A stretch of 64,000 bases of DNA from a virus (taxonomy: Duplodnaviria > Heunggongvirae > Uroviricota > Caudoviricetes), in the IMG/VR virus record IMGVR_UViG_3300039008_000325, positions 49,372 through 113,371 of that record, one strand, 5' to 3'. Of the stretch, positions 15,083 through 46,149 are shown in pieces. The position numbers and the translations under genes are program-made. The notes below the pieces were generated by a model, which did no database searches, was not told where the DNA came from, and saw nothing but the letters and a program-made list of their open reading frames with translations. Every line of letters begins with the position of its first letter. The first letter of the stretch is position 1.

Positions 15083-15159
15083 CGCGGGATAGAGCAGTCG
15101 GGTAGCTCAACAGGCTCATAACCTGTAGGTCGCTGGTTCAAATCCAGCTCCCGCAACCA
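15083..15159 (+). tRNA. tRNA-Met (CAU), initiator-like
   Basis: cloverleaf with anticodon loop CTCATAA and acceptor C1:A72 mismatch (bacterial initiator hallmark). Confidence 0.75.
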
Positions 15160-15214
15160 AAAGATAGTTGATTTCATTTTTAAAAGTTATATAATATAAT
15201 TATAGAGGAAATTA

Positions 15215-15267
15215 CTATTAACCTTTTATAAATAATTATACAGTAACTATTTATAAAAGGTTAATAG
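15215..15267 (+). promoter_or_regulatory. perfect 20-bp inverted repeat hairpin containing a late -10 box and sequestering the SD of the downstream HNH gene
   Basis: left arm CTATTAACCTTTTATAAATA (15215-15234), right arm TATTTATAAAAGGTTAATAG (15248-15267). TATAAATA at 15227-15234. AAGG SD lies in the right arm, ATG at 15268. Confidence 0.6.
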
Positions 15268-15942
15268 ATGAATTATAAAAGAATTTACAATGAAATCATA
15301 GAAAATAGAATAAATAATCCATTTAAAGGTTATACAGAAACACATCATATTTTACCTAGATCATTAGGTGGATCAGATGAAAAAGAAAATTTAGTTAAAT
15401 TGAGTGCTAGAGAACATTTCATATGTCACTTACTTTTAACTAAAATACATAAAGATGATACTATTGAACATTATAAGATGTTAAATGCATTTATTATGAT
15501 GAAAATGAATAGTAATACACAAGATAGATATTTTAATAGTTATTTATATGAAAAAATAAGAATAAAATACTCTAAAATGCAAAGTAAAAAACAATCTGGT
15601 AAAGGTAATAACCAGTATGGTAAAATGTGGATTACAAATGGAAAAGATAATAAATTAATTTATAGAGATAATTCAATACCGGTTGGTTGGAAAAAAGGTC
15701 GTAAATTAAAATCACCTAAAACAGATGCTCTAAATGAAAAATTTAGGAAAAGAAAACAAAAAACAGCATCTAAAAAATTACAAACAACTTTAATGTATGA
15801 AGAATATTATAAAATTTATTGTGAATATGGTTGGGAAAAATTTAAAGAAATAACCGATTATAAATTTTCTCAACAAAATTTAGTAATGCAGTTTAAACAT
15901 CGTGTTAAAGATTACACATCACAACGCGGTAGAAAAAGATAG
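15268..15942 (+). CDS. HNH homing endonuclease
   Basis: TETHHILPRSLGGSDEKENLVKLSAREHFICH His-Me finger; paralogue of 18388 (both begin MNYKR(I/L)YNEIIENR). Confidence 0.85.
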   Translation: MNYKRIYNEIIENRINNPFKGYTETHHILPRSLGGSDEKENLVKLSAREHFICHLLLTKIHKDDTIEHYKMLNAFIMMKMNSNTQDRYFNSYLYEKIRIKYSKMQSKKQSGKGNNQYGKMWITNGKDNKLIYRDNSIPVGWKKGRKLKSPKTDALNEKFRKRKQKTASKKLQTTLMYEEYYKIYCEYGWEKFKEITDYKFSQQNLVMQFKHRVKDYTSQRGRKR

Positions 15943-15943
15943 A

Positions 15944-16017
15944 GGGTTCATAATTCAATGGTAGAATAACCGACTTTTAATCGGTTTACCTAAGTTCGAT
16001 TCTTAGTGAACCCACCA
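15944..16017 (+). tRNA. tRNA-Lys (UUU)
   Basis: acceptor GGGTTCA/TGAACCC, anticodon stem ACCGA/TCGGT, loop CTTTTAA; starts 2 nt after the HNH stop. Confidence 0.75.
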
Positions 16018-16030
16018 AATATTTAATTGT

Positions 16031-16107
16031 ATACCTGTAGTTCAGATGGATAGAACAACAGATTTCTAATCTGTAGGTCATAGGTTCGAGTCCTATCAGG
16101 TATGCCA
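16031..16107 (+). tRNA. tRNA-Arg (UCU)
   Basis: acceptor ATACCTG/CAGGTAT, anticodon loop TTTCTAA, T-arm ATAGG-TTCGAGT-CCTAT. Confidence 0.8.
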
Positions 16108-16117
16108 GTTTTAAGAT

Positions 16118-16194
16118 GGTGTTTGTAGCTCAATTGGTAGAGTGTTTCCTTGTGATGGAAGATGTTGCGAGTTCGAGTCTCGTCAAACACCCCA
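16118..16194 (+). tRNA. tRNA-His (GUG)
   Basis: extra G-1, acceptor GTGTTTG/CAAACAC, discriminator C, loop TTGTGAT. Confidence 0.8.
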
Positions 16195-16205
16195 TTTTAA
16201 TTTGA

Positions 16206-16244
16206 GGACTTGTAGCTCAGGTGGTTAGAGCACTAGACTGATTT
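16206..16244 (+). pseudogene. 5' tRNA fragment (acceptor + D-arm + half anticodon arm, loop CTGATTT), truncated at promoter cassette
   Basis: GGACTTG-TA-GCTC-AGGTGGTTA-GAGC then breaks inside anticodon loop where AATTATAAATAATTATATAA begins. D-arm nearly identical to tRNA-Ile at 20688. Confidence 0.55.
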
Positions 16245-16247
16245 TAA

Positions 16248-16267
16248 AATTATAAATAATTATATAA
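16248..16267 (+). promoter_or_regulatory. late promoter cassette
   Basis: exact consensus; followed by AAGGAATATAATTATG leader shared with genes at 38941 and 53518. Confidence 0.65.
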
Positions 16268-16282
16268 TAAAGGAATATAATT

Positions 16283-16990
16283 ATGAATAATATAAAAATT
16301 GATGAATCTTGGAAACAAGAAAGTGGTAAATATAAATGCCCATATTGTGATAAGGAATATACTAAAAAAGGTATATGTACACATATATGGAGAAAACATA
16401 CAGAAGAAGGTTTAAATTTTACTAAATTACACGATCCAAATAAAGGTTTTAAAGATGGTACTAGAAAAGCTTGGAATAAAGGTTTAACTAAAGAAACTGA
16501 CACAAGGTTAGAAGAAAAAAGTATTAAGTTGCGAGAAAAATTTAATAGTGGTGAATTAGAGGGTTATTGGAAAAATAAAAAACATTCTAACTCTACAATA
16601 ATAAAGATGAAAAATAATAAAAATTGTGGAGGATATAGAAAAGGGTCAGGTAGAGGTAAATCTGGCTGGTATAAAAATTATTATTGTGATAGTAGTTGGG
16701 AATTAGCTTTTGTAATTTATAATTTAGAAAACAATATAAAATTTGAAAGAAATACTAAAAAATTTAGTTATATATTTAATAGAAAAAAACATGATTATAT
16801 GCCGGATTTTATTATCAATAACGAATATATAGAAATAAAAGGTTACATAACTGAACAATGGAAAGCTAAAAAAGAACAATTTCCACATAAGTTAAAAACA
16901 TTATATCAAAAAGATATACAAAAATATTTAGATTATGTGATTAATAAATATGGAAAAGATTTTATTAAATTATACGGCTCTCTAGCTTAG
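16283..16990 (+). CDS. putative homing endonuclease: N-terminal C2H2-like zinc finger, NUMOD3-like repeats, C-terminal PD-(D/E)xK-like domain
   Basis: CPYCDKEYTKKGICTHIWRKH; WNKGLTKETD and KHSNSTIIKM NUMOD3-like; C-terminal H.Y.PDF...IEIKG; last codons overlap tRNA-Phe. Confidence 0.5.
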   Translation: MNNIKIDESWKQESGKYKCPYCDKEYTKKGICTHIWRKHTEEGLNFTKLHDPNKGFKDGTRKAWNKGLTKETDTRLEEKSIKLREKFNSGELEGYWKNKKHSNSTIIKMKNNKNCGGYRKGSGRGKSGWYKNYYCDSSWELAFVIYNLENNIKFERNTKKFSYIFNRKKHDYMPDFIINNEYIEIKGYITEQWKAKKEQFPHKLKTLYQKDIQKYLDYVINKYGKDFIKLYGSLA

Positions 16991-17051
16991 TTGGTCTGAG
17001 CGCTCGATTGAAGCTCGAGAGGTTCTGGTTCGAATCCAGGGGGAGCCACCA
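16976..17051 (+). tRNA. tRNA-Phe (GAA)
   Basis: acceptor GGCTCTC/GGGAGCC, anticodon stem CTCGA/TCGAG, loop TTGAAGC. Confidence 0.75.
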
Positions 17052-17052
17052 A

Positions 17053-17355
17053 ATGAAAATAAAAAAATTAATACTAATATTATTCCTACTAATTAGTAAT
17101 ACGACATACGCAAGTAATTTCATATCAGATAAAGATAATAAAGTAGTAGGTGTTAAAACAGATACAATTAGGTTAGATAAAAGATTATTATATAGAGCAG
17201 AATACAACCATATGAAAGAACGTACACAAACGAGTGCTGCTTACGAGATTAATAAAAATAATTACATAATAATATACTTAATACATAGTAAAGAGAACAA
17301 TATGTTTGAAGAATTTGATGATACTATTAAGATTAGGTATAAATATAAATTTTAG
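17053..17355 (+). CDS. small secreted protein (signal peptide MKIKKLILILFLLISNTTYA)
   Basis: ORF-track call starts inside tRNA-Phe. The in-frame ATG at 17053 gives a canonical signal peptide and uses GGGGGAG of the tRNA 3' end as SD. Confidence 0.45.
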   Translation: MKIKKLILILFLLISNTTYASNFISDKDNKVVGVKTDTIRLDKRLLYRAEYNHMKERTQTSAAYEINKNNYIIIYLIHSKENNMFEEFDDTIKIRYKYKF

Positions 17356-17431
17356 GGGATGTAGCTCAGTTGATTAGAGCACTGCACTGTCACTGCAGAG
17401 GTCGCCGGTTTGAGCCCGGTCATTCCCGCCA
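17355..17431 (+). tRNA. tRNA-Asp (GUC)
   Basis: 77 nt, anticodon stem CTGCA/TGCAG, loop CTGTCAC. Confidence 0.8.
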
Positions 17432-17437
17432 GTTTAA

Positions 17438-17514
17438 GTAGGGGTAGTAGCAATTGGTTAAAACAGTTGACTCCAAATCTTCAGTTCTAGGTTCGAGTCC
17501 TAGCCCCTATGCCA
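17438..17514 (+). tRNA. tRNA-like gene with canonical acceptor and T-arm but non-canonical D/anticodon arms (identity unresolved)
   Basis: 77 nt; acceptor GTAGGGG/CCCCTAT, T-arm CTAGG-TTCGAGT-CCTAG, CCA encoded; no 5-bp anticodon stem could be drawn by hand. Confidence 0.4.
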
Positions 17515-17521
17515 AGATAAT

Positions 17522-17598
17522 GTATCTGTAGCTCAATTGGATAGAGCACTTGGCTACGAACTAAGAGGTTGTGGGTTCGAGTCCTACCAGGTATGCCA
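17522..17598 (+). tRNA. tRNA-Arg (ACG)
   Basis: anticodon stem CTTGG/CTAAG (2 GU), loop CTACGAA, T-arm GTGGG-TTCGAGT-CCTAC. Confidence 0.75.
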
Positions 17599-17630
17599 GT
17601 TAATATAAAACATTTGAAAAGGGAGATAAA

Positions 17631-17867
17631 ATGTTTTTTAAGAGTAGGAAAAGATTTAAAATAGGTACATATTACATTGATGAAAGAAGTAGATTAAGAA
17701 TACTTTGGTTAGATGAGATATGTGAGAAATCAATATTAAAGTTTAATTTTTGCAAATTTATGATGGATAATAAAATCATAACATCAAGTAGTGTAGTGTT
17801 ATTTGATAAGCAAACAAAATATACAGTAAAAGGTGATTGTATAGTAAATTATATACAATCAATATAA
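17631..17867 (+). CDS. hypothetical protein
   Basis: 78 aa, AAAGGGAGATAAAATG SD. Confidence 0.4.
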   Translation: MFFKSRKRFKIGTYYIDERSRLRILWLDEICEKSILKFNFCKFMMDNKIITSSSVVLFDKQTKYTVKGDCIVNYIQSI

Positions 17868-17872
17868 GTTGT

Positions 17873-17946
17873 TACCCCGTCGTCTAATGGTAAGACATGT
17901 GTTTTTGGTGCACATTATCGAGGTTCGAATCCTTGCGGGGTAACCA
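17873..17946 (+). tRNA. tRNA-Gln (UUG)
   Basis: acceptor TACCCCG/CGGGGTA, loop TTTTGGT. Confidence 0.75.
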
Positions 17947-17950
17947 ATTA

Positions 17951-18026
17951 GGGGCCTTAGCTCATCTGGGAGAGCGCTACATTTGCAATGTAGAGGTGGC
18001 GAGTTCGAGTCTCGCAGGCTCCACCA
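17951..18026 (+). tRNA. tRNA-Ala (UGC)
   Basis: acceptor GGGGCCT, anticodon stem CTACA/TGTAG, loop TTTGCAA. Confidence 0.8.
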
Positions 18027-18045
18027 AATTTGAAGGAGAGATAAT

Positions 18046-18291
18046 ATGGTACATCAAGCTCAATTAGTACCAAATATTAATAAAAAAGTTATTAAATTAT
18101 ATAGTCCAGATGGTGATGATGTAAATACAGTATTCTTAAGTTCAATACATGATGTAGTTGAACAACATTTAAAACATGTAGGTGATTTTTATTATGTTAA
18201 TTTTAAAAATAAAACACAAACAGAAGTAAATAAAGAATCATATGATTTAGTTAAAGAGTTATTATTTAAAGATTGTGAATACGTAAATTAA
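18046..18291 (+). CDS. hypothetical protein
   Basis: 81 aa, GAAGGAGAGATAATATG SD. Confidence 0.4.
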   Translation: MVHQAQLVPNINKKVIKLYSPDGDDVNTVFLSSIHDVVEQHLKHVGDFYYVNFKNKTQTEVNKESYDLVKELLFKDCEYVN

Positions 18292-18347
18292 GCAGGTGTA
18301 GTATAATGGCTATTATTACAGTCTTCCAAACTGAGGATAGGAGTTCG
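18292..18347 (+). pseudogene. 5' tRNA fragment (acceptor to mid T-loop, anticodon region CTTCCAAAC), truncated at promoter cassette
   Basis: GCAGGTG-TA-... AGGAGTTCG then CTAAAATTATAAATAATTATATAA; no matching 3' acceptor strand downstream. Confidence 0.45.
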
Positions 18348-18351
18348 CTAA

Positions 18352-18371
18352 AATTATAAATAATTATATAA
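18352..18371 (+). promoter_or_regulatory. late promoter cassette
   Basis: exact consensus 17 nt before ATG 18388. Confidence 0.65.
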
Positions 18372-18387
18372 TAGGAGTTATATAATT

Positions 18388-18957
18388 ATGAACTATAAAA
18401 GACTTTACAATGAAATAATAGAAAATAGAAAACAAAACCCAATTAAAGGCTATACTGAAAAACATCATATTATACCAAGAAGCCTAAATGGAACTGATGA
18501 GAAAGAAAACTTAGTTAATCTAACAGCTAGAGAACATTTCATTTGCCATTATTTACTAACTAAAATGTATGATAAAAGAACAAACAATCATTATAAATTA
18601 GTTTGTGCATTTAATATGATGAATATGAGTGGAGAATATCACACAAGGTATTTTAACAGTTATTTATATGAAGCAAATAAAATACAATTTTCTAAATTAC
18701 AAAGTAAAAACCAAAAAGGTCAAAAAAATTCTCAATTTGGTAAAATGTGGATTACTAATGGAAAAGATAATAAAAAAATTCGAAAAGATGAAATTATTCC
18801 TGAAGGTTTTAGAAAGGGTAGGGTCATACCTAAAGAAATAAAAGAAAAAATAAGAAAATCTATGAAAGGTGTTGGTGTTGGTCGTGTTCGAAGTGATAAA
18901 ACAAAAGCAAAAATAAGTCGAACATTGAAATTGAGACACAGATCAATAAATTTATAG
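18388..18957 (+). CDS. HNH homing endonuclease
   Basis: TEKHHIIPRSLNGTDEKENLVNLTAREHFICH; stop overlaps first nt of tRNA-Ser. Confidence 0.85.
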   Translation: MNYKRLYNEIIENRKQNPIKGYTEKHHIIPRSLNGTDEKENLVNLTAREHFICHYLLTKMYDKRTNNHYKLVCAFNMMNMSGEYHTRYFNSYLYEANKIQFSKLQSKNQKGQKNSQFGKMWITNGKDNKKIRKDEIIPEGFRKGRVIPKEIKEKIRKSMKGVGVGRVRSDKTKAKISRTLKLRHRSINL

Positions 18958-19044
18958 GAGCGATGTCTGAGTGGTTTAAGGTGCTTCCCTGCTAAGGAAG
19001 TGTAGTGAAAGCTACCGCAGGTTCGAATCCTGCTCGTTCCGCCA
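18957..19044 (+). tRNA. tRNA-Ser (GCU)
   Basis: type II tRNA, long variable arm, anticodon stem CTTCC/GGAAG, loop CTGCTAA. Confidence 0.75.
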
Positions 19045-19046
19045 TT

Positions 19047-19120
19047 GAGCTATTGTCCGAGTAGTTAGGTGATAGTCTGCAAAACTATTTACATTGGTGC
19101 AAATCCAATATAGCTCTCCA
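19047..19120 (+). tRNA. tRNA-Cys (GCA)
   Basis: acceptor GAGCTAT/ATAGCTC, stem ATAGT/ACTAT, loop CTGCAAA. Confidence 0.75.
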
Positions 19121-19137
19121 TAATTTAATACAGTTTA

Positions 19138-19225
19138 GCTGGGGTGGTGGAATTGGTATACACGCTAGTCTTAGGAACTAGTTTTCAGAAATGATTTATG
19201 GGTTCGAATCCCATCTCCAGCACCA
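19138..19225 (+). tRNA. tRNA-Leu (UAG)
   Basis: type II, anticodon stem CTAGT/ACTAG, loop CTTAGGA. Confidence 0.75.
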
Positions 19226-19277
19226 TAAACTATTGTTGAATTATGATAAAATTACATTTAAAATGTTAATACATTTA

Positions 19278-19362
19278 GGAAGAGAGGCGAGTGGTTAGCA
19301 AGTGCACTTGAAATGCATCAGAGGTCAAACTCCTGCAGGTTCGAATCCTGTCTCTTCCGCCA
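19278..19362 (+). tRNA. tRNA-Ser (UGA)
   Basis: type II, GGAAGAG... loop CTTGAAA, T-arm CAGG-TTCGAAT-CCTG. Confidence 0.75.
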
Positions 19363-19382
19363 TTATTTTAAGGAGAGTTAAA

Positions 19383-19757
19383 ATGAAAAAAAGATTAGGT
19401 TTCGTAAGTAATAGTTCAAGTAGTTCATTTGTAGTTTGGGGTATTCAATTAGATACTTGTGAAGATAAACTAAAAGAAAAATGTACTGAACAATTGTTCA
19501 AAAGATTATATGATGAACAAGAAGAATATATAAAAGAAGATTTAGTTGAAGAATTATATGATTGGACTGAAGATGATGGATTAGTTGCTAATGATGATGA
19601 ATCAGGCTATATCCAAATAGGTTTATATGCTGAAAAAATGAAAGATGATGAGACATTAAAACAATATAAAGAAAAAGTTCTTCAAAAATTAATAGAAAAA
19701 GGTATAAAAGCTAAATATGAAGATATCCATTGGATAGAAGAAGTTTCATATTGCTAA
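19383..19757 (+). CDS. small acidic protein, MKKRLGFVSNSSSSSF family member 1
   Basis: AAGGAGAGTTAAAATG SD immediately after tRNA-Ser. ORF-track N-terminal extension would overlap the tRNA. C-terminus rich in D/E. Confidence 0.6.
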   Translation: MKKRLGFVSNSSSSSFVVWGIQLDTCEDKLKEKCTEQLFKRLYDEQEEYIKEDLVEELYDWTEDDGLVANDDESGYIQIGLYAEKMKDDETLKQYKEKVLQKLIEKGIKAKYEDIHWIEEVSYC

Positions 19758-19759
19758 CA

Positions 19760-19836
19760 GGGGCATTAGCTCAGCTGGTTAGAGCGGTACGCTCATAACG
19801 TATAGGTCCCTGGTTCGAATCCAGGATGCCCCACCA
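19760..19836 (+). tRNA. tRNA with CAU anticodon (elongator Met or Ile2-lysidine type)
   Basis: acceptor GGGGCAT, loop CTCATAA. Confidence 0.7.
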
Positions 19837-19842
19837 AGTTAT

Positions 19843-19919
19843 GGTACTTTAGCTCAGTTGGTTAGAGCATTCGCTTCATACGTGAAAGGTCGTTGGTTCG
19901 AATCCAACAAGTACCACCA
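19843..19919 (+). tRNA. tRNA with CAU anticodon (second copy, Met/Ile2)
   Basis: acceptor GGTACTT/AAGTACC, loop TTCATAC. Confidence 0.7.
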
Positions 19920-19938
19920 TTTTAAAAGGAGAGTTAAA

Positions 19939-20364
19939 ATGAAAAAAAGATTAGGTTTTGTGAGCAATAGTAGCTCAAGTAGCTTTATTATAGGTATTGC
20001 TAAAGTTAAAGATAGAAAAAAATTAGAAGAAAAATATTCTGACATACTTAGTTGTTTAGATATTAGAACTATTCAATCTTTCGTTGATGAAAAATGGGGT
20101 GGTCTTTATGAACAAAGTGATAGATATATGCATGAATCATTTGACGGTACTGAAGTAACTATATCTAAAGATAATATTAATAAAGATGATCTTGTATTAG
20201 TGGTTGATGATTATGAAGATATTTACCCTGAAGATGATGATTGGGATATAGATTATGATAAAGATTATTATCATCCATATGAAGATAGAATTGATGAATT
20301 ATTATCAGATGATGAAGTAGTTGAACACGGTGAATTTGCTAAAGGTGCTGGTTACAACGGATAG
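19939..20364 (+). CDS. small acidic protein, MKKRLGFVSNSSSSSF family member 2
   Basis: identical SD-ATG context AAGGAGAGTTAAAATG; N-terminal 16 aa identical to member 1; C-terminus DDYEDIYPEDDDWDIDYDKDYYHPYEDRIDELLSDDE. Confidence 0.6.
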   Translation: MKKRLGFVSNSSSSSFIIGIAKVKDRKKLEEKYSDILSCLDIRTIQSFVDEKWGGLYEQSDRYMHESFDGTEVTISKDNINKDDLVLVVDDYEDIYPEDDDWDIDYDKDYYHPYEDRIDELLSDDEVVEHGEFAKGAGYNG

Positions 20365-20374
20365 GAGAGAAGTT

Positions 20375-20680
20375 ATGAAAAAAAGAAACGGTTTTGTAAG
20401 TAATAGTTCAAGTAGTAGTTTTATTTTATTTTTAGATAAAAATGAAAAGACTAAAAATAAACCACAATTCGATGGAGCACATCATTATATCTGGGAAAAA
20501 GATGATGATGGTAACTTTGAATGTGATAGTCAATACTATGTAGATATTAGAAATAAAATATCTAAAGCAAAAGAAGATAATAAACTTGTAATTGAATTTG
20601 AAACAGAAATGAATTCAGATTATGAAACAAGAGAATTATTAGACTTATTAGGTGTTGAATACATCTCATTAGATAATTAA
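20375..20680 (+). CDS. small acidic protein, MKKRLGFVSNSSSSSF family member 3
   Basis: MKKRNGFVSNSSSSSF, GGAGAGAAGTTATG SD, 4 nt after member 2 stop region. Confidence 0.55.
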   Translation: MKKRNGFVSNSSSSSFILFLDKNEKTKNKPQFDGAHHYIWEKDDDGNFECDSQYYVDIRNKISKAKEDNKLVIEFETEMNSDYETRELLDLLGVEYISLDN

Positions 20681-20687
20681 AGTTAAA

Positions 20688-20763
20688 GTCTATTAGCTCA
20701 GTTGGTTAGAGCGTACGTCTGATACACGTGAGGTCCCAAGTTCGAATCTTGGATAGACTACCA
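20688..20763 (+). tRNA. tRNA-Ile (GAU)
   Basis: acceptor GTCTATT/GGATAGAC, loop CTGATAC. Confidence 0.75.
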
Positions 20764-20770
20764 AAAATAT

Positions 20771-20857
20771 GCGTCGGTGGCTGAGCGGTCAAAGGCACCG
20801 GACTGTAAATCCGGCGGGATTATCCCTACCTAGGTTCGAATCCTAGCTGGCGCACCA
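20771..20857 (+). tRNA. tRNA-Tyr (GUA)
   Basis: type II, anticodon stem CCGGA/TCCGG, loop CTGTAAA. Confidence 0.75.
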
Positions 20858-29074: not shown

Positions 29075-30355
29075 ATGTTACAATTTTTCACAGAAATGAG
29101 AAATGAATTAACTAATACTAATTCAAGAAAAGAAAAAGAAGAAATTCTAAAAAAATATTATGAAAAAGATTCTAAATTGTATACTATAGGTTTTTCTTAT
29201 ATGTATAATTATGATCAAATTTATGGTGTTACATTTGATAAATGTCAAGAAAGATCTGATTTAATAACGCTACCTGCTAGTGATGATTATAAGATCACAG
29301 ATTTATTAGATAGTTTAAATAGTAGACATATTACTGGTCATAATGCAATTGCAGAGGTGAACACATTTGTATTATGTCATGAAAAATATAAAGAGATTAT
29401 TAGTTGTTTTATTGATAAAGATTTAAAATGTGGTGTTGGTATTCCTTCAATTAATAGACATAGAAAGGTTGTTAAAACATTTGATGTAGCTTTAGCTAAT
29501 AAATTTGATGAAAAACATCTTAAGAAACATGAAAAATGGTTAATATCTAGAAAATTAGATGGTGTTAGGTGTATAGCTATTATTAAAGATAATGATGTTA
29601 AATTCTATTCTAGACAAGGTAAAGAATTCTTTACATTAGGTGTGTTAAGAGAAGAATTACTAAAAAGTGATATTAAAGAAGGTGTATTAGATGGTGAACT
29701 TTGTTTAACTGATGAAAATGGTAATGAAGATTTTATTGGTATTATTAAACAAATGAGAAAAAAAGATCACACAATTGAAAACCCTCAATATAAAGTATTT
29801 GATTTCTTAACAATTGAAGAATTTGAATCTAAAAAAAGTGACAGAGATCTTTACTTAAGATTAGGTACTTTACATGCACGTAATATATTTAAGCTTGATC
29901 ATGTAGAAATATTGCAACAATATGAATATAATGATGATAATTTAGCAGATATGACAACTAAAGCTGAAGAAAATAATTGGGAAGGTTTAATGCTTAGAGC
30001 TAATACTGGTTATGAAGGTAAAAGATCTAATAATCTTCTTAAAGTTAAGAAAATGCAAGATGAAGAATTTAAAATTGTAGATGTTATATATGGTAAGAAA
30101 CCTATGTTATGTGGTGATAATGTAATGCATGAACAAGATACATTAGCAGCTGTTGTAATTGACTTAGGAGATGGTAATAAGGTTCAAGTTGGTAGTGGAT
30201 TTAGTGATTATGATAGATTAGCATATTATAACAAACCTGAACTATTAGTCGGGAAAATGATAACAGTTCAATTCTTTGAAAAGACTGTTGATAAAAATGG
30301 TAAACCAAGTTTAAGGTTCCCAGTATTTAAATGTATTAGAGAAAATGGAGAATAA
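29075..30355 (+). CDS. ATP-dependent DNA ligase
   Basis: nucleotidyltransferase motif I KLDGVRC (KxDGxR), motif-V-like LLKVKK, 426 aa. Confidence 0.7.
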   Translation: MLQFFTEMRNELTNTNSRKEKEEILKKYYEKDSKLYTIGFSYMYNYDQIYGVTFDKCQERSDLITLPASDDYKITDLLDSLNSRHITGHNAIAEVNTFVLCHEKYKEIISCFIDKDLKCGVGIPSINRHRKVVKTFDVALANKFDEKHLKKHEKWLISRKLDGVRCIAIIKDNDVKFYSRQGKEFFTLGVLREELLKSDIKEGVLDGELCLTDENGNEDFIGIIKQMRKKDHTIENPQYKVFDFLTIEEFESKKSDRDLYLRLGTLHARNIFKLDHVEILQQYEYNDDNLADMTTKAEENNWEGLMLRANTGYEGKRSNNLLKVKKMQDEEFKIVDVIYGKKPMLCGDNVMHEQDTLAAVVIDLGDGNKVQVGSGFSDYDRLAYYNKPELLVGKMITVQFFEKTVDKNGKPSLRFPVFKCIRENGE

Positions 30356-34889: not shown

Positions 34890-36053
34890 ATGAAAGTAAT
34901 AAGCACAGAAAAAAAGCCAATAAAAACATGGTGTAATGAACCAGAAGAAGGTGCAATTGAACAAGCTAAAAATTTAGCTAATTTACCGTTCATCTTCAAA
35001 CACGTTGCTCTAATGCCAGATACACATCAAGGTTATGGAATGCCAATTGGTGGTGTTATAGCTACTGAAGGTGTGATAATTCCTAATGCTGTTGGTGTTG
35101 ATATTGGTTGTGGAATGTGTGCAGTTAAAACGAATCTTAAAGTATTTGATTTAGGTGATGATTTAGGTAATATTATGAGAGATATTAGACAAGCAATTCC
35201 ATTAGGAATGAATCATCATAAAGAAGATCAAGAATGGGAAGGTTTTATTAATTACCCAGATATAGATATATTATGTTCCAACATGAATAAAGCTAAAAGA
35301 TCGTTAGGTACATTAGGTGGCGGAAATCATTTCATTGAAATACAAAAAGATACTGATAATAATGTTTGGATAATGTTACATAGTGGTAGTAGAAACTTAG
35401 GTAAACAAATAGCAGATCATTATAATAAAAAAGCTTTGACATTATGTAAAATGTGGCATTCTAATGTTTATCCATTAGAAGGAAATGATGTATTACCATT
35501 CTTACCATTAGCTACTCAAGAAGGTAAAGAATATTTAGAAGCAATGAACTTTGCATTAGATTTTGCATTAGCTAACAGAATGCAAATGATTAATAAGTGC
35601 AAAGAAGCTTTCCAAAAATATATTGATTGTGAATTTGGTGAAGTTATTAATATACATCATAACTATGCAGCTATGGAAAATCATTTTGGTAAGAATGTTA
35701 TGGTTCATAGAAAAGGTGCAACCTCAGCTAGAAAAGGGCAATATGGAATTATACCAGGTAGTCAAGGAACATCTTCTTATATAGTTGAAGGATTAGGTAA
35801 TCCAGATAGTTTTATGAGTTGTTCACATGGTGCTGGTAGAAAAATGAGTAGAAAAGCTGCTAGAGAAAATCTATCAGTTGAAGAAGAAGTTAAATTACTT
35901 AATGATCAAGGTATTAAACACGCTATCAGAAATGTTAGTGATTTAGATGAAGCTCCTTCTGCTTATAAAGATATTAAAACTGTAATGGAAGAACAAGAGG
36001 ATCTTGTTAAAATATTAGTAGAACTTAAGCCATTAGGTGTTATTAAAGGGTAA
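34890..36053 (+). CDS. rtcB: RNA-splicing ligase RtcB
   Basis: RtcB metal/GTP motifs GGGNHFIEIQ, HNYAAMENHFG, MVHRKGAT, cysteine CGMCA. Confidence 0.85.
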   Translation: MKVISTEKKPIKTWCNEPEEGAIEQAKNLANLPFIFKHVALMPDTHQGYGMPIGGVIATEGVIIPNAVGVDIGCGMCAVKTNLKVFDLGDDLGNIMRDIRQAIPLGMNHHKEDQEWEGFINYPDIDILCSNMNKAKRSLGTLGGGNHFIEIQKDTDNNVWIMLHSGSRNLGKQIADHYNKKALTLCKMWHSNVYPLEGNDVLPFLPLATQEGKEYLEAMNFALDFALANRMQMINKCKEAFQKYIDCEFGEVINIHHNYAAMENHFGKNVMVHRKGATSARKGQYGIIPGSQGTSSYIVEGLGNPDSFMSCSHGAGRKMSRKAARENLSVEEEVKLLNDQGIKHAIRNVSDLDEAPSAYKDIKTVMEEQEDLVKILVELKPLGVIKG

Positions 36054-36408: not shown

Positions 36409-36820
36409 ACCAGATGCAATTGGAAGAAAATTAATAGGTAAAATTATTAATATTCTAGAAGAAGCTGATTTATTAATTAAAGAAATAAAGACAGTTGAAC
36501 CAGAAATAGATCAACTAAAAAGACACTATAATCATTTACCAGAAGATATATTGAGAAATGTTATTCTATATATGACAAGTGATTTAATAGCTATGTCAGT
36601 TGAAGGTGAAAATGCTATATCTAAAGTTAGAAAATTGGTGGGTGATACTCAACCACTTGAAGCTGATATTGCAAGTATTCGTGGAAGATTTTCTAGTGAT
36701 AGTTATGCACAATCAAATAATGAAGGTAGAGCTATATTTAATCTAATACATGCTTCAGATAGTGTTGAAAATGCTAAAAGAGAATATGATATTTGGTTTA
36801 AATATGATAATACATTCTAA
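36380..36820 (+). CDS. ndk: nucleoside diphosphate kinase
   Basis: LILLKPDAIGRKLIGKII, IRGRFS, NLIHASDSVENAKREYDIWF match NDK signature incl. catalytic His. Confidence 0.85.
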   Translation: MIEKTLILLKPDAIGRKLIGKIINILEEADLLIKEIKTVEPEIDQLKRHYNHLPEDILRNVILYMTSDLIAMSVEGENAISKVRKLVGDTQPLEADIASIRGRFSSDSYAQSNNEGRAIFNLIHASDSVENAKREYDIWFKYDNTF

Positions 36821-37675: not shown

Positions 37676-38461
37676 ATGTATTATATAATTTACAAAATTA
37701 CTAACAGTTTAAATGATAAATTTTATATAGGTCAACATAGAACAAATAATTTAGAAGATGGTTATATGGGAAGTGGTTTATATATTAAAAATGCAAAGAA
37801 TAAATATAAAGAAGAATTTATTAAAATATTCAAAAAAGAAATATTAGAATATTGTGATAATTTTGATGATATGCAAATAAAAGAGGAATATTATATTAAA
37901 AATGAATATGATAATCCTCTTTGCACTAATATAAGATATGGTGGAAGTCAATCAATACATAGTGAAAAAACTAAAGAAAAGTTAAGTGAGTCACATAAGG
38001 GTAAAAAACTATCTAATGAACACAAAAATAAAATTCGTCAAGCTAATTTAGGTAAAGTTTTATCTCAAGAAACAAAAGATAAAATATCAAATTCTAAAAA
38101 ATTAAACATGACAGATGATATTAGAAAAAAGATATCAAAAGCAAGTAAAAATAGAAAAGTTTCACAAGAAACAAAAGATAAAATATCAAAAGCTAATAAA
38201 GGTAGAATTTTAGGTTCTCCATCTGAAAATACTAGGAAAAAGATATCAGATGCAACAAAAGGAAAACTTGTAAGTCAAGCCACTAAAGAAAAAATCAGTA
38301 TAGCTAGAAAAGGTTTAAAAAGATTAGATAGCACTAAATTAAAAATTTCAGAAAAACTTAAAAATAAATCAATTGAAATACATAAATGTCCTCATTGTGG
38401 TAAAGAAGGTAAAGGTCCAATTATGTTTAGATTTCATTTCCATAATTGTAAGAAGAAATAA
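37676..38461 (+). CDS. GIY-YIG homing endonuclease with NUMOD3 repeats
   Basis: YIIYKITNSLNDKFYIGQ...GYMGSG; five S..TK.KIS NUMOD3-like repeats; C-terminal CPHCG...HNC zinc finger. Confidence 0.8.
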   Translation: MYYIIYKITNSLNDKFYIGQHRTNNLEDGYMGSGLYIKNAKNKYKEEFIKIFKKEILEYCDNFDDMQIKEEYYIKNEYDNPLCTNIRYGGSQSIHSEKTKEKLSESHKGKKLSNEHKNKIRQANLGKVLSQETKDKISNSKKLNMTDDIRKKISKASKNRKVSQETKDKISKANKGRILGSPSENTRKKISDATKGKLVSQATKEKISIARKGLKRLDSTKLKISEKLKNKSIEIHKCPHCGKEGKGPIMFRFHFHNCKKK

Positions 38462-42814: not shown

Positions 42815-44170
42815 ATGAAAACACTATCATTAAAAGAAAGAAAAGCGATTTTAGATTATGCTTCTAAAGTAGTTGTTTCTGAAAATAAAAAAATGGATGA
42901 AGGTAGTTTAAAAGAAAGAGTGTTCGCTCAATTAGTTAGCAACCAAAAAGATGCTAAACATGAAGGACGTTCTGGTGAATTCTTTGAAAAAACATTCCAA
43001 GATGTTAATGCTGAAATCTTAGATGCTAAAGAAGAAGATATCAAAGAATCTAAAGAAAACTTAAAAGAAGCTACTTTATCTGGTAATATCGCTGGTTATA
43101 CTCCAGTAATGATCCAAATGTTAAGAAGAACAGTTGTTGATTCAATTTCATTCGAAATTATTGGTGTTCAACCAATGGCTCAACCAACTGGATATATCTT
43201 CTCATATGTTCCTAGATATGGATCTGGTGCTCAAGATGGTCATGAAGCGTTCAAAACTGAACCAAATTCAGCTTTCACAGGTACTGGTACTCAAACAGGT
43301 ACTAACCCTTCAGTATTAAATGATGCTGTTCCTGGACCTTATACAGCTGGTGACGGAATGTCAACTGCAGCTTTAGAAGCTTTAGAAACTGGTGTTAATG
43401 ACTGGGCTGAAATGAAATTCACTATCGAAAGAGCATCTGTTGAAGCTAAAGGTAGAGGTGTAAGAGCTGAATATTCTGAAGAAATGATCACAGATCTTAA
43501 AAACTTACACGGATTAGACGCTGGTATGTTATTAGCTGACTTACTTTCTCAAGAAGTTGTTGTAGAACAAAACAGAGAAATCGTAAGAAAAATTTATATC
43601 TCAGCTTTACCTGGTGCACAAGAAGGTACTACAACAGCTGGTATTTGGAACTTAGATAACGATTCTAAAGGTAGATGGGTAGATGAAAATGTTAAATCAT
43701 TTGTTACTCAAATCAACAGAGAATCAAGCTCAATCTTCCAATCAATCAGAATGGGTAGAGGTAACTTTGGTATTACTACATTAGATTTATCTGATGCATT
43801 AGCAATCTTACCACAATTCAGACCAACTTCAGTTACAGCTGACGGTACTGCTTCATTAACTGGTATGTTAGGTGATAAAAAGATCATAGTTGATCCATAT
43901 TTATCAGACATCGCTGACGGTGTATTCTTATCAGGATACAAAGGTTCTAACGAACTTAAAGCTGGTATGTTCTTCACTCCTTACGTTGGAATGCAATATT
44001 ATGATGCAGTTCACTCTGAATCTTTCCAACCTACTAAAGGTGTTAAGTCTAGATATGGTTTAATTGCTAATCCATTCGCAACAGCTACAGCTACAACTCA
44101 AGGTGACGGTACAATTGCTGCTAACACTAACCAATTCTTCAGAAGATTGAAAGTAGAAGCTGTATTTTAA
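42815..44170 (+). CDS. major capsid protein (T4 gp23-like)
   Basis: ISFEIIGVQPMAQPTGYIF matches the T4 gp23 pattern IAFDICGVQPMNSPTGQVF. The C-terminus FFTPYVGMQYY...FQPTKGVKSRYGLIANPFA...FFRRLKV matches gp23 YYAPYVAL...FQPVMGFKTRYGIGINPFA...YFRRVYV. Confidence 0.93.
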   Translation: MKTLSLKERKAILDYASKVVVSENKKMDEGSLKERVFAQLVSNQKDAKHEGRSGEFFEKTFQDVNAEILDAKEEDIKESKENLKEATLSGNIAGYTPVMIQMLRRTVVDSISFEIIGVQPMAQPTGYIFSYVPRYGSGAQDGHEAFKTEPNSAFTGTGTQTGTNPSVLNDAVPGPYTAGDGMSTAALEALETGVNDWAEMKFTIERASVEAKGRGVRAEYSEEMITDLKNLHGLDAGMLLADLLSQEVVVEQNREIVRKIYISALPGAQEGTTTAGIWNLDNDSKGRWVDENVKSFVTQINRESSSIFQSIRMGRGNFGITTLDLSDALAILPQFRPTSVTADGTASLTGMLGDKKIIVDPYLSDIADGVFLSGYKGSNELKAGMFFTPYVGMQYYDAVHSESFQPTKGVKSRYGLIANPFATATATTQGDGTIAANTNQFFRRLKVEAVF

Positions 44171-44211
44171 TTGATAGTAATCGTTAGATTACAAAGATTA
44201 AAAGAAAAATA

Positions 44212-44243
44212 AAAAGAGTTAACTTAATTGTTAACTCTTTTTT
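44212..44243. terminator. bidirectional intrinsic terminator (between capsid gene and convergent minus-strand gene)
   Basis: AAAAGAGTTAAC-TTAATT-GTTAACTCTTTT; A-run upstream and T-run downstream. Confidence 0.8.
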
Positions 44244-44244
44244 A

Positions 44245-45267
44245 TTAGTAATCACATAACATATCAAATTTAGATATCATTTTATCTACATCACATTGAG
44301 GTATTACTTTCCCATAACGATACTCATTCATCTCTTTCTGTTCTTTTAATCCAACTAATCTAAATAAGTATTTTATATTTCTATCATCTCTCTTAAAGAT
44401 TCTACGTTCTTTACGTGATACATTAACTTCATCAATTATAATATCATAGCCTTCTCGACAATATCTATTATAATCTTTTAATAGTTCTTTATCTATTTGT
44501 TTTTGTTGTTCATTACTTAATGAATTCCATCTATCAACATATGTTTCACCAGTACCGTGTTTCATTACATATTCATCTCTACTAATAACAACAGTATCAG
44601 GATTTTCTTTTAATATTTCTTTACATAAAGATGATTTACCAGAAGCTGGTAACCCTATTAAAATAGTAGTTGTAGGTTTACCCTCATCATATTCAACTTC
44701 TTGACTAATTAATCTTGGTGGAAAGAATCCATCTCCTGATGAAATTCTACCTTGACTATCATATATAGTAAAGTTATGTAATAGATCTAACTCTTCTTGA
44801 GTCATATTCTTTTCTACTAATCTTAAAGTCTTTTCATCTTTTACCAATAATTGATGAAAATTAATTACTTTAATAATTGGTAACATATCAGATTCTTTAA
44901 TATAACCTAATTTAACTAATTCTAATAGTAAATCAATAGCATACATAGAAGACACCTTTTCATGATTCTTAAAGAAGACTCTTGTTCTTTTACCACTATC
45001 ATCAACATCTCTAGTATACACCTTACCAATATCATGTAATAAAGCAATAACTCTTTCTACATTAGTCTTACATAATTTATAAACCATCATAGTATGAACC
45101 CAAACAGAACCTTCTTCATGATAAGGGTTACTGTAATAAACACCTTGACCACTAGATATTACTCTATAATCATCACTTACATAACCGTGATCACAATTTG
45201 ACATTTTAATATAAAGGTCGAAATGAAAATTTCTAAACCATTCAATTAAATTCATTTTTTCTTCCAT
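44245..45267 (-). CDS. HD-domain phosphohydrolase fused to T4-Pnk-like polynucleotide 5'-kinase
   Basis: N-terminal ALLHDIGK HD motif. C-terminal TTTILIGLPASGKSSLCKEILKENPDTVVISRDEY matches the T4 Pnk kinase pattern ILTIGCPGSGKSTWAREF...INRDDY. Confidence 0.65.
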   Translation of the reverse strand: MEEKMNLIEWFRNFHFDLYIKMSNCDHGYVSDDYRVISSGQGVYYSNPYHEEGSVWVHTMMVYKLCKTNVERVIALLHDIGKVYTRDVDDSGKRTRVFFKNHEKVSSMYAIDLLLELVKLGYIKESDMLPIIKVINFHQLLVKDEKTLRLVEKNMTQEELDLLHNFTIYDSQGRISSGDGFFPPRLISQEVEYDEGKPTTTILIGLPASGKSSLCKEILKENPDTVVISRDEYVMKHGTGETYVDRWNSLSNEQQKQIDKELLKDYNRYCREGYDIIIDEVNVSRKERRIFKRDDRNIKYLFRLVGLKEQKEMNEYRYGKVIPQCDVDKMISKFDMLCDY

Positions 45268-45325
45268 AATTTTTCTCCTCTTTGTGTATTATATATTATT
45301 TCCAAGTATAAATCAAATAAACATT

Positions 45326-45355
45326 AAAAAAGACTTATACTATTGCATAAGTCTT
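45326..45355 (-). terminator. intrinsic terminator for minus-strand HNH gene
   Basis: rc reads AAGACTTAT-GCAATAGT-ATAAGTCTT + TTTTT. Confidence 0.7.
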
Positions 45356-45405: not shown

Positions 45406-46149
45406 TTAACCTTCATATCTATTACCTTTAATGAGATTTTCTTCAGCCCATAAAGGTTGTAAATTATTTAATGACCAGCACTCTTTTAGTTCTTCTTCAT
45501 TCTCACAACTAAACCAACTTTTAGGTTTAATATGATCAATATGCCAATCTCCATAATTGTTCCAAGACATACCAGGTCGAAATTGTTTTTCTAAATGTTG
45601 TTTTAAATCATCTATTGTATATCCAAACAATTTGAGATATTTAGATGTGGTTTTTGTTTTATTAATCGTTCGATTAAGTGTGGTTGAGATAATATGATTT
45701 AATTTATAATTAATATTTTCATTATATCTTTTATTTTGATATATCTTATTATAATTTTTTAATTTTTCCTTATTTTTCAATTTATATTGCTTTTGATATT
45801 CTCGAATCTTATTTCTTTTTAATTCTTTATATTCTTTAGAGTTTAATAGTTTCTGTTTTTCTAACTTTGCTAATAACTTTACTTCATCTTTAGCTTGTTG
45901 TTTTATAATTTTAAGTTGTTGTTTTTGATTTCTCGCTACTTCAGTTTTTAATAGGTATTTTTGCTGATATTTATTACGATTCTTTAAATAGTAATTTTTA
46001 GCTCGCTCTTTGTTATTTGTGTAGTAATTACTCTCACACAATTTACAACTATACTGATAACCATCTCCACTCGTTTTATTTTTATGAAACTCGTTTATAT
46101 TTTTTACTTCTTTACATTTAGTACATTTTTTATAAATAATTATAGACAT
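45406..46149 (-). CDS. HNH endonuclease with N-terminal zinc finger
   Basis: CTKC...CKLC N-terminus; GDWHIDHIKPKS...NLQPLWAEENLIKGN His-Me finger; paralogue of 54731 (both begin MSIIIYKK). Confidence 0.8.
   Translation of the reverse strand: MSIIIYKKCTKCKEVKNINEFHKNKTSGDGYQYSCKLCESNYYTNNKERAKNYYLKNRNKYQQKYLLKTEVARNQKQQLKIIKQQAKDEVKLLAKLEKQKLLNSKEYKELKRNKIREYQKQYKLKNKEKLKNYNKIYQNKRYNENINYKLNHIISTTLNRTINKTKTTSKYLKLFGYTIDDLKQHLEKQFRPGMSWNNYGDWHIDHIKPKSWFSCENEEELKECWSLNNLQPLWAEENLIKGNRYEG

What the first reader, a model, noticed from the sequence alone, without database searches (positions are those of the whole stretch)
44245..45267. Polynucleotide kinase with an HD-domain rather than a HAD phosphatase partner
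The C-terminal P-loop block GLPASGKSS...VISRDEY matches the T4 Pnk kinase pattern GCPGSGKST...INRDDY. The N-terminal half instead carries an HD metal-dependent phosphohydrolase motif (ALLHDIGK). T4 Pnk is kinase plus HAD-family 3'-phosphatase, so this is an alternative end-healing architecture, HD phosphoesterase plus kinase with the domain order reversed. It is encoded on the minus strand, convergent with the capsid gene, and shares a bidirectional terminator with it.
Basis: partly seen in the sequence, partly recalled or inferred. Interest (0 to 1): 0.55.

Follow-up and report, generated by a model that had tools for sequence, protein, structure and literature searches.

The report
Phage HD-type polynucleotide kinase-phosphatase (HD-Pnk)

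Summary

The interpretation (HD phosphoesterase + Pnk, order reversed relative to T4 Pnkp) is right but not new:
- Blasius et al. 2007 cite phage RM378 PNK (2005) as a viral PNKP with an HD phosphatase.
- Deinococcus DRB0098 and Runella HD-Pnk (2017) are characterised HD(N)-kinase(C) enzymes.
- The query is collinear with RM378 gene p110 (28% identity, E 5e-27; same PHROG, phrog_6931) and with Deinococcus HD-Pnk (hhalign 99%, E 9e-18).
- Campylobacter phage homologues are already annotated as polynucleotide kinase/phosphatase.
- The family is large: 849 representatives at E<=1e-30.

Fifteen of 23 full-length viral homologues sit next to an Rnl-type RNA ligase, which supports heal-and-seal RNA repair. 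The one oddity is that this phage shows no Rnl-type ligase in the 84 kb I could see. It has RtcB 8 kb away, plus 18 tRNA genes and a DNA ligase.

Verdict: new member of a known kind; low-to-moderate interest.

The parts
44245..45267 (-). HD-Pnk ORF, 340 aa (stop codon included)
   Evidence: full-length match to phrog_6931 (E 2e-52)
44746..45129 (-). HD phosphoesterase domain, residues ~47-174. Ligand set: H50 (NPYHEEG), H78-D79 (LLHDIGK), H102 (NHEKV), H138 (NFHQ), D170 (YDSQGR)
44674..44745 (-). Inter-domain linker, residues ~175-198; low model confidence
   Evidence: pLDDT < 50 at residues 179-192
44260..44673 (-). P-loop 5'-OH polynucleotide kinase domain, residues ~199-336. P-loop G205-K211-S212; R230-D231 (T4 R34-D35); D279/N282 (DxTN); R317 (T4 R126, Dra R371); K320
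44211..44242 (.). Symmetric hairpin between the capsid and HD-Pnk stop codons; putative bidirectional intrinsic terminator
   Evidence: read directly from the sequence
45288..45316 (-). Sigma-70-like promoter match (TTGATT-17-TATAAT, 10 of 12), 21 nt upstream of the ATG, followed by RBS GAGGAG at 45275-45280
   Evidence: Weak evidence: such matches are no more frequent than in shuffled sequence (23 found vs 22 expected)
45330..45355 (-). Terminator-like hairpin between the upstream HNH gene and the HD-Pnk promoter, which would make HD-Pnk its own transcription unit
   Evidence: MFE -15.1 kcal/mol, z -5.5
45406..46149 (-). Upstream gene on the same strand: HNH / endonuclease VII-type nuclease with an N-terminal zinc-finger-like region. 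Together with HD-Pnk it forms a two-gene minus-strand island between gp23 and the large terminase
   Evidence: phrog_1035 E 1e-20; no Pfam hit
34890..36053 (+). RtcB tRNA-splicing ligase, the only RNA ligase seen in this phage (context)
   Evidence: PF01139 E 4e-118; phrog_1075 E 2e-129
29075..30355 (+). ATP-dependent DNA ligase, a possible sealing partner if the substrate is DNA (context)
   Evidence: PF01068 + PF14743; phrog_114 E 4e-80
15083..20857 (+). Array of 18 tRNA genes interspersed with homing endonuclease genes (context: possible repair substrates or replacements)

Best explanation
The ORF encodes a bifunctional nucleic-acid end-healing enzyme of the HD-Pnk type, the family that includes RM378 gene p110 (phrog_6931). 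The C-terminal P-loop domain would transfer the gamma-phosphate of an NTP to a 5'-OH polynucleotide end. K211/S212 hold the phosphates and Mg2+, D231 acts as general base on the 5'-OH, and R317 in the lid contacts the NTP phosphates. The N-terminal HD domain, with a metal centre held by H50, H78-D79, H102, H138 and D170, would hydrolyse 2',3'-cyclic phosphate, 3'-phosphate or 2'-phosphate ends to 3'-OH. Together they would convert the 5'-OH / 2',3'>P ends left by metal-independent ribonucleases (for example host anticodon nucleases) into 5'-P / 3'-OH ends that an ATP-dependent ligase can seal, as T4 Pnkp does for Rnl1. What is shown: the domain architecture, conservation of the catalytic residues, the fold, homology to characterised members, and gene linkage to Rnl1-type ligases in relatives. 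What is inferred: the two activities themselves, RNA (tRNA) as the physiological substrate, and the identity of the sealing ligase in this phage.
Against: No Rnl-type ligase was found in the 84 kb of this phage that could be inspected (window plus 10-kb extensions). The RNA ligase that is present, RtcB, joins unhealed 3'-P/>P and 5'-OH ends, so it does not need HD-Pnk and would compete with it (property of RtcB as described in PMC7824862). The query has Met in place of the first lid arginine (T4 R122), which the 10 other group members keep. It has Val where the DxTN threonine usually sits. Like RM378 p110 and its whole group, it lacks the T4 R38 equivalent. The HD Pfam score is only just above the cut-off (24.2 vs 22), and the HDIG model is just below its own (26.1 vs 27.6). 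No biochemistry exists for this protein, and the primary RM378 and Runella papers could not be read here.
Confidence: 0.8

Rival explanations
1. Same enzyme, but its main substrate is DNA. It would heal 3'-phosphate / 5'-OH DNA breaks so that the phage's own ATP-dependent DNA ligase (29075-30355) can seal them, as proposed for Deinococcus HD-Pnk in radiation resistance.
For: DRB0098 phosphorylates a 5'-OH DNA 25-mer and belongs to a radiation-induced operon with an ATP-dependent ligase; the mutant is sensitive to ionising radiation (PMC1997131; PMC6300522). Runella HD-Pnk is described as a DNA/RNA end-healing enzyme (title quoted). This phage has a DNA ligase but no visible Rnl.
Against: In 15 of 23 viral homologue loci the linked ligase is Rnl-type, not a DNA ligase. 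The DNA ligase here is 14 kb away and looks like an ordinary replicative ligase (phrog_114). The two roles are not mutually exclusive.
Confidence: 0.2
2. The kinase half mainly serves RNA turnover rather than repair. By phosphorylating the 5'-OH ends of endonucleolytically cut mRNAs it would license them for host 5'-monophosphate-stimulated RNases, as reported for T4 PNK.
For: T4 PNK is reported to stimulate host endoribonucleases and reduce mRNA stability (PMC9409239, citing Durand et al. 2012). This would explain why HD-Pnk can coexist with RtcB without a cognate Rnl.
Against: It does not explain the conserved, intact HD phosphoesterase half, nor the frequent linkage to Rnl ligases in relatives. 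No RegB-like nuclease was identified in the window.
Confidence: 0.12
3. It is a small-molecule (nucleotide) enzyme: an AAA_33 nucleotide kinase fused to an HD nucleotidase or dNTPase that acts on the nucleotide pool, not on polynucleotide ends.
For: AAA_33 and HD are broad superfamilies. There are weak hits to 6PF2K, Zeta toxin, CMP kinase and phrog_318 'deoxyribonucleoside 5' monophosphate phosphatase' (E 0.078). The window has other nucleotide-metabolism genes: NrdD/G, NDK and dNMP kinase.
Confidence: 0.04
4. It is a poly(A) polymerase or CCA-adding enzyme, as homologues are annotated in RM378 and several Campylobacter phage records.
Against: There is no Pol-beta nucleotidyltransferase head domain in the query or its homologues. 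The similarity is confined to the HD domain, and the rest of the protein is a P-loop kinase.
Confidence: 0.01

Closest known systems
Rhodothermus phage RM378 polynucleotide kinase/3'-phosphatase (Blondal et al. 2005, J Biol Chem 280:5188; taken here to be gene Rm378p110)
   Same: Phage-encoded. HD domain at the N-terminus and P-loop Pnk at the C-terminus, of similar size (361 vs 340 aa). 28% identity over 279 aa, E 5e-27. Same PHROG (phrog_6931). Same SRD motif without the T4 R38 equivalent. Both come from T4-like myoviruses (gp20, gp23 and gp17 homologues).
   Different: RM378 also encodes an Rnl1-type RNA ligase (p103), and none is visible here. RM378 p110 keeps the first lid arginine and the DATN threonine, where the query has M313 and V281. 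That p110 is the published enzyme is my inference: it is the only Pnk-like gene in the genome, and the paper itself could not be read.
Bacterial HD-Pnk: Runella slithyformis HD-Pnk (Munir & Shuman 2017) and Deinococcus radiodurans DRB0098 (Blasius 2007; Schmier & Shuman 2018)
   Same: Same two domains in the same order, the same catalytic residues, and collinear homology (hhalign 99%, E 9e-18 against DRB0098). In Runella the stated activities are a 2',3'-phosphoesterase HD domain plus a 5'-OH polynucleotide kinase.
   Different: Only about 19-28% identity. DRB0098 has a linker roughly 70 aa longer and keeps the T4 R38-type arginine (SLDALR). The bacterial genes sit in operons with an ATP-dependent ligase (plus a macro/PARG-like or Tpt1 gene), whereas this gene stands alone.
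T4 Pnkp (kinase + HAD-type DxDxT 3'-phosphatase)
   Different: The phosphatase module is unrelated (HD metal-dependent versus a HAD acyl-phosphatase). The domain order is reversed. There is no R38 or R122 equivalent.
Campylobacter phage homologues (Fletchervirus / Firehammervirus, e.g. F336_083)
   Same: Closest cultured relatives (31-36% identity, full length). Same PHROG. Some are already annotated 'putative polynucleotide 5' kinase and 3' phosphatase'.
   Different: In F336 the gene lies 1.2 kb upstream of a T4 Rnl1-type ligase among replication and nucleotide-metabolism genes. Here it lies between the capsid and terminase genes, next to an HNH nuclease, with no Rnl in view.
Clostridial kinase-HD proteins of about 300 aa (e.g. 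P0013, P0016 from a C. perfringens plasmid)
   Same: Homologous HD and Pnk-like domains with the same motifs.
   Different: The order is circularly permuted (kinase at the N-terminus, HD at the C-terminus). They are cellular or plasmid-borne, and they keep the SSDxxR arginine.

Membership tests
HD-Pnk (HD phosphoesterase + 5'-OH polynucleotide kinase; RM378 PNK / Runella / Deinococcus type) | N-terminal HD-superfamily domain with a complete metal-ligand set (H..HD..H..H..D) | tested here: met
   PF01966 24.2 bits, above the 22-bit cut-off. H50, H78, D79, H102, H138 and D170 are invariant in A2 and align with RM378 p110 and DRB0098 (H81/D82).
HD-Pnk (HD phosphoesterase + 5'-OH polynucleotide kinase; RM378 PNK / Runella / Deinococcus type) | C-terminal P-loop kinase of the polynucleotide-kinase clade: GxxxxGKS/T, general-base Asp, DxTN, lid Arg | tested here: met
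   K211/S212, D231, D279/N282 and R317 are present. Best profile and fold matches are Pnks. Deviations: V234 (T4 R38), V281 (DxTN Thr), M313 (T4 R122).
HD-Pnk (HD phosphoesterase + 5'-OH polynucleotide kinase; RM378 PNK / Runella / Deinococcus type) | Domain order HD then kinase in a single polypeptide of about 340-410 aa | tested here: met
   HD at residues 47-174 and kinase at 199-336, in a 340-aa protein.
HD-Pnk (HD phosphoesterase + 5'-OH polynucleotide kinase; RM378 PNK / Runella / Deinococcus type) | Collinear sequence homology to characterised members | tested here: met
   RM378 p110: E 5e-27. DRB0098: hhalign 99%, E 9e-18 over 294 columns. Shared phrog_6931. The Runella sequence itself was not available.
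HD-Pnk (HD phosphoesterase + 5'-OH polynucleotide kinase; RM378 PNK / Runella / Deinococcus type) | Genetic linkage to an ATP-dependent polynucleotide ligase (frequent, but not strictly defining) | tested here: not met
   No Rnl-type ligase was found in the window or in the 10-kb extensions. Linkage is present in 15 of 23 viral relatives and in F336. 57 kb of the contig were not inspected.
HD-Pnk (HD phosphoesterase + 5'-OH polynucleotide kinase; RM378 PNK / Runella / Deinococcus type) | 5'-OH kinase and 2',3'-phosphoesterase activities | not testable with these tools
   Requires purified protein and end-labelled substrates.
T4-type Pnkp (kinase + HAD phosphatase) | C-terminal HAD/DxDxT acyl-phosphatase domain, with the kinase at the N-terminus | tested here: not met
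   No HAD hit in Pfam, NCBIfam or PHROGs. The kinase is C-terminal. Only the kinase domain is shared.
Bacterial Pnkp / Pnkp1 (kinase + calcineurin-type metallophosphoesterase + ligase-like domain; Hen1-linked) | Central binuclear metallophosphoesterase domain | tested here: not met
   No Metallophos hit in the query. The PDB matches to 4xrp and 4gp7 cover the kinase domain only.
Class II tRNA nucleotidyltransferase / poly(A) polymerase (annotation carried by some homologues) | Pol-beta nucleotidyltransferase head domain (PF01743) | tested here: not met
   Absent from the query, RM378 p110 and F336_083. The similarity is restricted to the HD domain.

The most novel reading that the evidence does not exclude
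In this lineage HD-Pnk has become uncoupled from a classic Rnl ligase and coexists with RtcB. On this reading it is not part of a Pnkp-Rnl tRNA heal-and-seal pathway. Instead it does something else with broken ends. It might feed the phage DNA ligase, or tag 5'-OH RNA fragments for decay. It might also remodel ends so that RtcB (phage or host) cannot or need not act on them, giving the phage two deliberately separated end-processing routes. The unique Met at the first lid-arginine position could go with altered NTP-donor use.
Probability: 0.2. Interest if true: 0.4.

Novelty: new member of a known kind. Interest (0 to 1): 0.22.

Why it matters
The value is mainly in annotation. The family (phrog_6931) is labelled 'unknown function' in PHROGs, and GenBank and RefSeq records variously call its members 'AAA family ATPase', 'polyA polymerase' or 'hypothetical'. 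Yet the family includes RM378 p110, the apparent gene for the RM378 PNK cited in the literature, and it is clearly homologous to the characterised bacterial HD-Pnk. Linking these lets hundreds of phage proteins be named. It also shows that HD-type end healing, usually next to an Rnl1-type ligase, is a widespread alternative among large phages to the T4 HAD-type Pnkp. For this phage it adds a third element, alongside 18 tRNA genes and RtcB, to what looks like a heavy investment against RNA-targeting host defences. It opens no new question of principle.

Tried and rejected
- **Primary papers.** I tried to read Munir & Shuman 2017, Blondal 2005 and Schmier & Shuman 2018. None is held, so the precedents rest on what PMC6097658, PMC1997131 and PMC6300522 say about them.
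- **Runella sequence.** I could not obtain Runella HD-Pnk for a direct comparison. The one genome-contig scan returned only partial, mostly HD-only matches in assorted MAGs, with no Runella and no host clue. DRB0098 from the Deinococcus megaplasmid served instead.
- **Rnl-type ligase in this phage.** I probed with 25 sequences (RM378 Rnl, DraRnl, DRB0100, the F336 Rnl1-type ligase and ligase ORFs from viral loci) against all ORFs of at least 60 aa in the window and both 10-kb extensions. There were no hits even at E 0.1-1. The other 57 kb of the 141-kb contig could not be reached with the available tools.
- **Close relatives.** Megablast of 10 kb around the gene against cultured phages found nothing. 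tblastn against plasmids gave only weak single-domain hits.
- **Single-sequence PDB search.** It was uninformative (best E 0.014 to an unrelated protein). The profile search was needed.
- **Promoter evidence.** I considered the sigma-70-like promoter as evidence of early expression but rejected it. Such matches are at the chance level in this AT-rich DNA.
- **Synteny.** Placement between capsid and terminase is not conserved. Only L023 shares the arrangement convergent with gp23.

Full report
**1. The observation**

The ORF is real and sits at the stated coordinates: 44245-45267 on the minus strand, 340 aa, with an ATG start preceded by GAGGAG. The identical protein is on record on seven metagenomic contigs, the longest 141,128 bp (JGI 3300045488). 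The window corresponds to about bases 49,094-113,093 of that contig (my arithmetic).

Pfam assigns HD (PF01966, residues 70-117, 24.2 bits against a cut-off of 22) and AAA_33 (PF13671, residues 202-334, E 3e-11). No HAD, metallophosphoesterase or nucleotidyltransferase domain is found.

The convergent upstream gene (42815-44170, +) is a gp23-type major capsid protein (E 1e-87). It is flanked by a T4-type scaffold gene, and a T4-type large terminase lies beyond the minus-strand island. The 74-nt gap between the two stop codons contains a 13-bp hairpin (44211-44242) with an A-run on one side and a T-run on the other. It therefore reads as stem-loop plus U-tract in both directions, and it folds far better than shuffled controls on both strands (z -5.7 and -4.8). 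All parts of the observation are confirmed.

**2. What the two halves are**

*Kinase half.* A profile built from the query and its ten nearest full-length relatives (A2) was searched against all PDB sequences. The top hits are nucleic-acid kinases:

| Hit | E-value |
|---|---|
| PSTK | 1.5e-12 |
| Capnocytophaga Pnkp1 | 5.5e-12 |
| T4 Pnk | 7e-12 |
| CthPnkp kinase domain | 1.7e-10 |
| Mucorales tRNA-splicing RNA kinase | 2.6e-9 |
| Mammalian PNKP | 1.4e-7 |

Residue mapping against T4 Pnk:

| T4 Pnk | Query | Note |
|---|---|---|
| K15 / S16 | K211 / S212 | P-loop |
| R34-D35 | R230-D231 | D231 invariant |
| DxTN motif | D279, N282 | query reads DEVN |
| R126 | R317 | aligns with DRB0098 R371, which Blasius et al. 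mutated as the T4 R126 equivalent; R371K reduced kinase activity |

There are three deviations:
- The T4 R38 position is V234. RM378 p110 and the whole query group lack that arginine too, while DRB0098 and the Clostridial group keep it.
- The DxTN threonine is V281.
- The first lid arginine (T4 R122) is M313. The ten other group members have Arg there.

From my own recollection of the T4 and CthPnkp structures, the first lid arginine stacks on the NTP base rather than taking part in chemistry. I therefore read M313 as a possible change in donor binding, not as inactivation. This is inference.

*HD half.* H50, E52, H58, L76-K82 (LLHDIGK), H102, H138, D170 and G173 are invariant in A2. They align with the corresponding residues of RM378 p110 and of DRB0098, whose HD doublet is H81/D82.

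**3. Relatives and family size**

The query has no close relative. The best hits among 5.8 billion proteins are 34% identical. Megablast of the surrounding 10 kb against cultured phages finds nothing. The capsid protein is at most 41% identical to any cultured phage, cyanomyoviruses being the best. This is a deep-branching T4-like phage with 26.6% G+C that encodes an anaerobic ribonucleotide reductase.

The family itself is large. A profile search of 1.84 billion cluster representatives gives 849 proteins at E<=1e-30, and the best 150 are nearly all single full-length collinear matches of 310-500 aa. IMG/VR holds at least 23 full-length homologues on large viral contigs. Sixty-six cultured phage records hold a match, 52 of them T4-like Campylobacter phages. 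The Campylobacter genes are annotated as 'putative polynucleotide 5' kinase and 3' phosphatase', 'polyA polymerase' or 'AAA family ATPase'.

The query, Campylobacter phage F336_083 and RM378 p110 all fall full-length in phrog_6931, which PHROGs labels 'unknown function'. A second group of about 300-aa Clostridial proteins has the same two domains in the opposite order.

**4. Comparison with what is known**

The architecture is not new.
- PMC1997131 (Blasius et al. 2007) says a subfamily of PNKPs with a 5'-kinase and an HD 3'-phosphohydrolase had been proposed. It says phage RM378 PNK (Blondal et al. 2005) was the one such enzyme shown to have 3'-phosphatase activity. It also shows that D. radiodurans DRB0098 (HD + kinase) has 5'-kinase activity.
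- PMC6097658 summarises Runella slithyformis HD-Pnk (Munir & Shuman 2017). [quoted passage not shown]
- PMC6300522 records that DRB0098 is needed for radiation resistance.
- PMC7824862 notes that in a few jumbo phages the end-healing phosphatase is HD-like.

I fetched DRB0098 from the Deinococcus megaplasmid and RM378 p110 from the phage genome. The query is collinear with p110 (28% identity over 279 aa, E 5e-27). p110 is the only Pnk-like gene in RM378. The query's group aligns with DRB0098 over 294 columns spanning both domains (hhalign 99%, E 9e-18).

All structural membership criteria for HD-Pnk are met. The T4-type (HAD), bacterial Pnkp (metallophosphoesterase) and nucleotidyltransferase families each fail on a defining domain.

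**5. How it most likely works, and in what pathway**

The enzymology is inferred from conserved residues and characterised homologues. An NTP-dependent reaction phosphorylates 5'-OH ends in the kinase domain. A metal-dependent reaction hydrolyses 2',3'-cyclic, 3'- or 2'-phosphate ends in the HD domain. The product ends are 5'-P and 3'-OH.

The pathway context comes from gene neighbourhoods. In Campylobacter phage F336 the homologue lies 1.2 kb upstream of a T4 Rnl1-type ligase (PF09511) on the same strand. In 15 of 23 full-length viral homologue loci an Rnl-type ligase lies 15-4,404 bp away on the same strand, and none of the 23 has RtcB within the flanks. RM378 also encodes an RNA ligase. This is the Pnkp-Rnl1 'heal and seal' logic that T4 uses against anticodon nucleases (established knowledge of the T4 system; see also PMC7824862).

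This phage differs from that pattern. The gene is a stand-alone unit with its own promoter-like site and terminators. It sits next to an HNH/endonuclease VII-type gene in a two-gene minus-strand island between the capsid and terminase genes. I found no Rnl-type ligase in the window or in the 10 kb beyond each edge, 84 of 141 kb in all.

What the window does contain is RtcB (E 4e-118), 8 kb away, along with a replicative-type ATP-dependent DNA ligase and 18 tRNA genes. RtcB joins 3'-P/>P to 5'-OH directly, so HD-Pnk is dispensable for it, and healed ends are not RtcB substrates. There are three possibilities:
- an Rnl lies in the unseen 57 kb;
- a host ligase or the phage DNA ligase does the sealing;
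- the enzyme has a role other than tRNA resealing, such as DNA end healing as in Deinococcus, or licensing 5'-OH RNA fragments for decay as reported for T4 PNK (PMC9409239).

I rank bifunctional end healing as near certain at the enzyme level. I rank RNA repair as the most likely role but not a secure one.

**6. Verdict**

This is a divergent new member of a known, large family. Interest is low to moderate. The value lies in transferring a function to phrog_6931, correcting the 'polyA polymerase' and 'AAA ATPase' annotations, and noting the unusual pairing with RtcB.

Noticed in passing
window 34890-36053 (+), relative to 44245-45267 (-): RtcB and HD-Pnk occur in the same phage, with no Rnl-type ligase in the 84 kb inspected. 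The two end-processing chemistries are mutually exclusive on a given break. None of 23 related HD-kinase loci has RtcB within 10 kb, while 15 have an Rnl-type ligase.
   Followed up: partly
window 15083-20857 (+): An array of 18 tRNA genes, including three tRNA-Met(CAT), Lys(TTT), two Arg, His, Asp and Tyr. It is interspersed with homing endonuclease genes (phrog_655 at 15268-15942 and 18388-18957; an endonuclease-like ORF at 16283-16990).
   Followed up: partly
window 45406-46149 (-): A 247-aa HNH/endonuclease VII-type protein with an N-terminal Cys-rich region (phrog_1035, E 1e-20; no Pfam hit), directly upstream of HD-Pnk. Two Logan contigs (L086, L087) end inside this gene, which may reflect presence/absence variation of a mobile nuclease.
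   Followed up: partly
P0013-P0040; alignment A1: A group of about 300-aa Clostridia-type proteins, one on a C. perfringens plasmid, carries the same kinase and HD domains in the opposite order (kinase at the N-terminus, HD at the C-terminus). They keep the SSDxxR arginine that the phage group lacks. This is a circularly permuted sister architecture.
   Followed up: partly
phrog_6931; RM378 Rm378p110 (L003 48060-49145); Campylobacter phage records: Annotation problem. The family that includes RM378 p110, the likely gene for the published RM378 PNK, is 'unknown function' in PHROGs. Its members are named 'polyA polymerase', 'AAA family ATPase' or 'hypothetical protein' in GenBank and RefSeq records.
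   Followed up: yes
window 33503-33925 (+): A YqeY-like protein (PF09424, E 4e-20; GatB-C-terminal-like domain) is encoded 1 kb upstream of RtcB. NDK (36380-36820) and a dNMP kinase (30611-31147) are nearby.
   Followed up: no
window 25814-26962 (+): A 382-aa ORF next to the baseplate wedge gene has no Pfam or PHROG match at all.
   Followed up: no
L088 15372-16970 (contig Ga0495723_43156, about 5 kb left of the window): The phage encodes a Cpn60/GroEL-type chaperonin (532 aa). Nearby are Mre11-like metallophosphoesterases and a UvsY-like protein.
   Followed up: no
L023 9974-12370: One uncultured viral contig shares the window's arrangement: the HD-kinase gene is convergent with a gp23-like capsid gene 22 bp away, and an Rnl-like ligase lies 4.4 kb upstream.
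   Followed up: no
window 37676-38461 (+); L085 1073-1639: Further homing endonuclease genes (GIY-YIG + NUMOD3; NUMOD3) are scattered among the structural genes, so this genome is rich in mobile nucleases.
   Followed up: no
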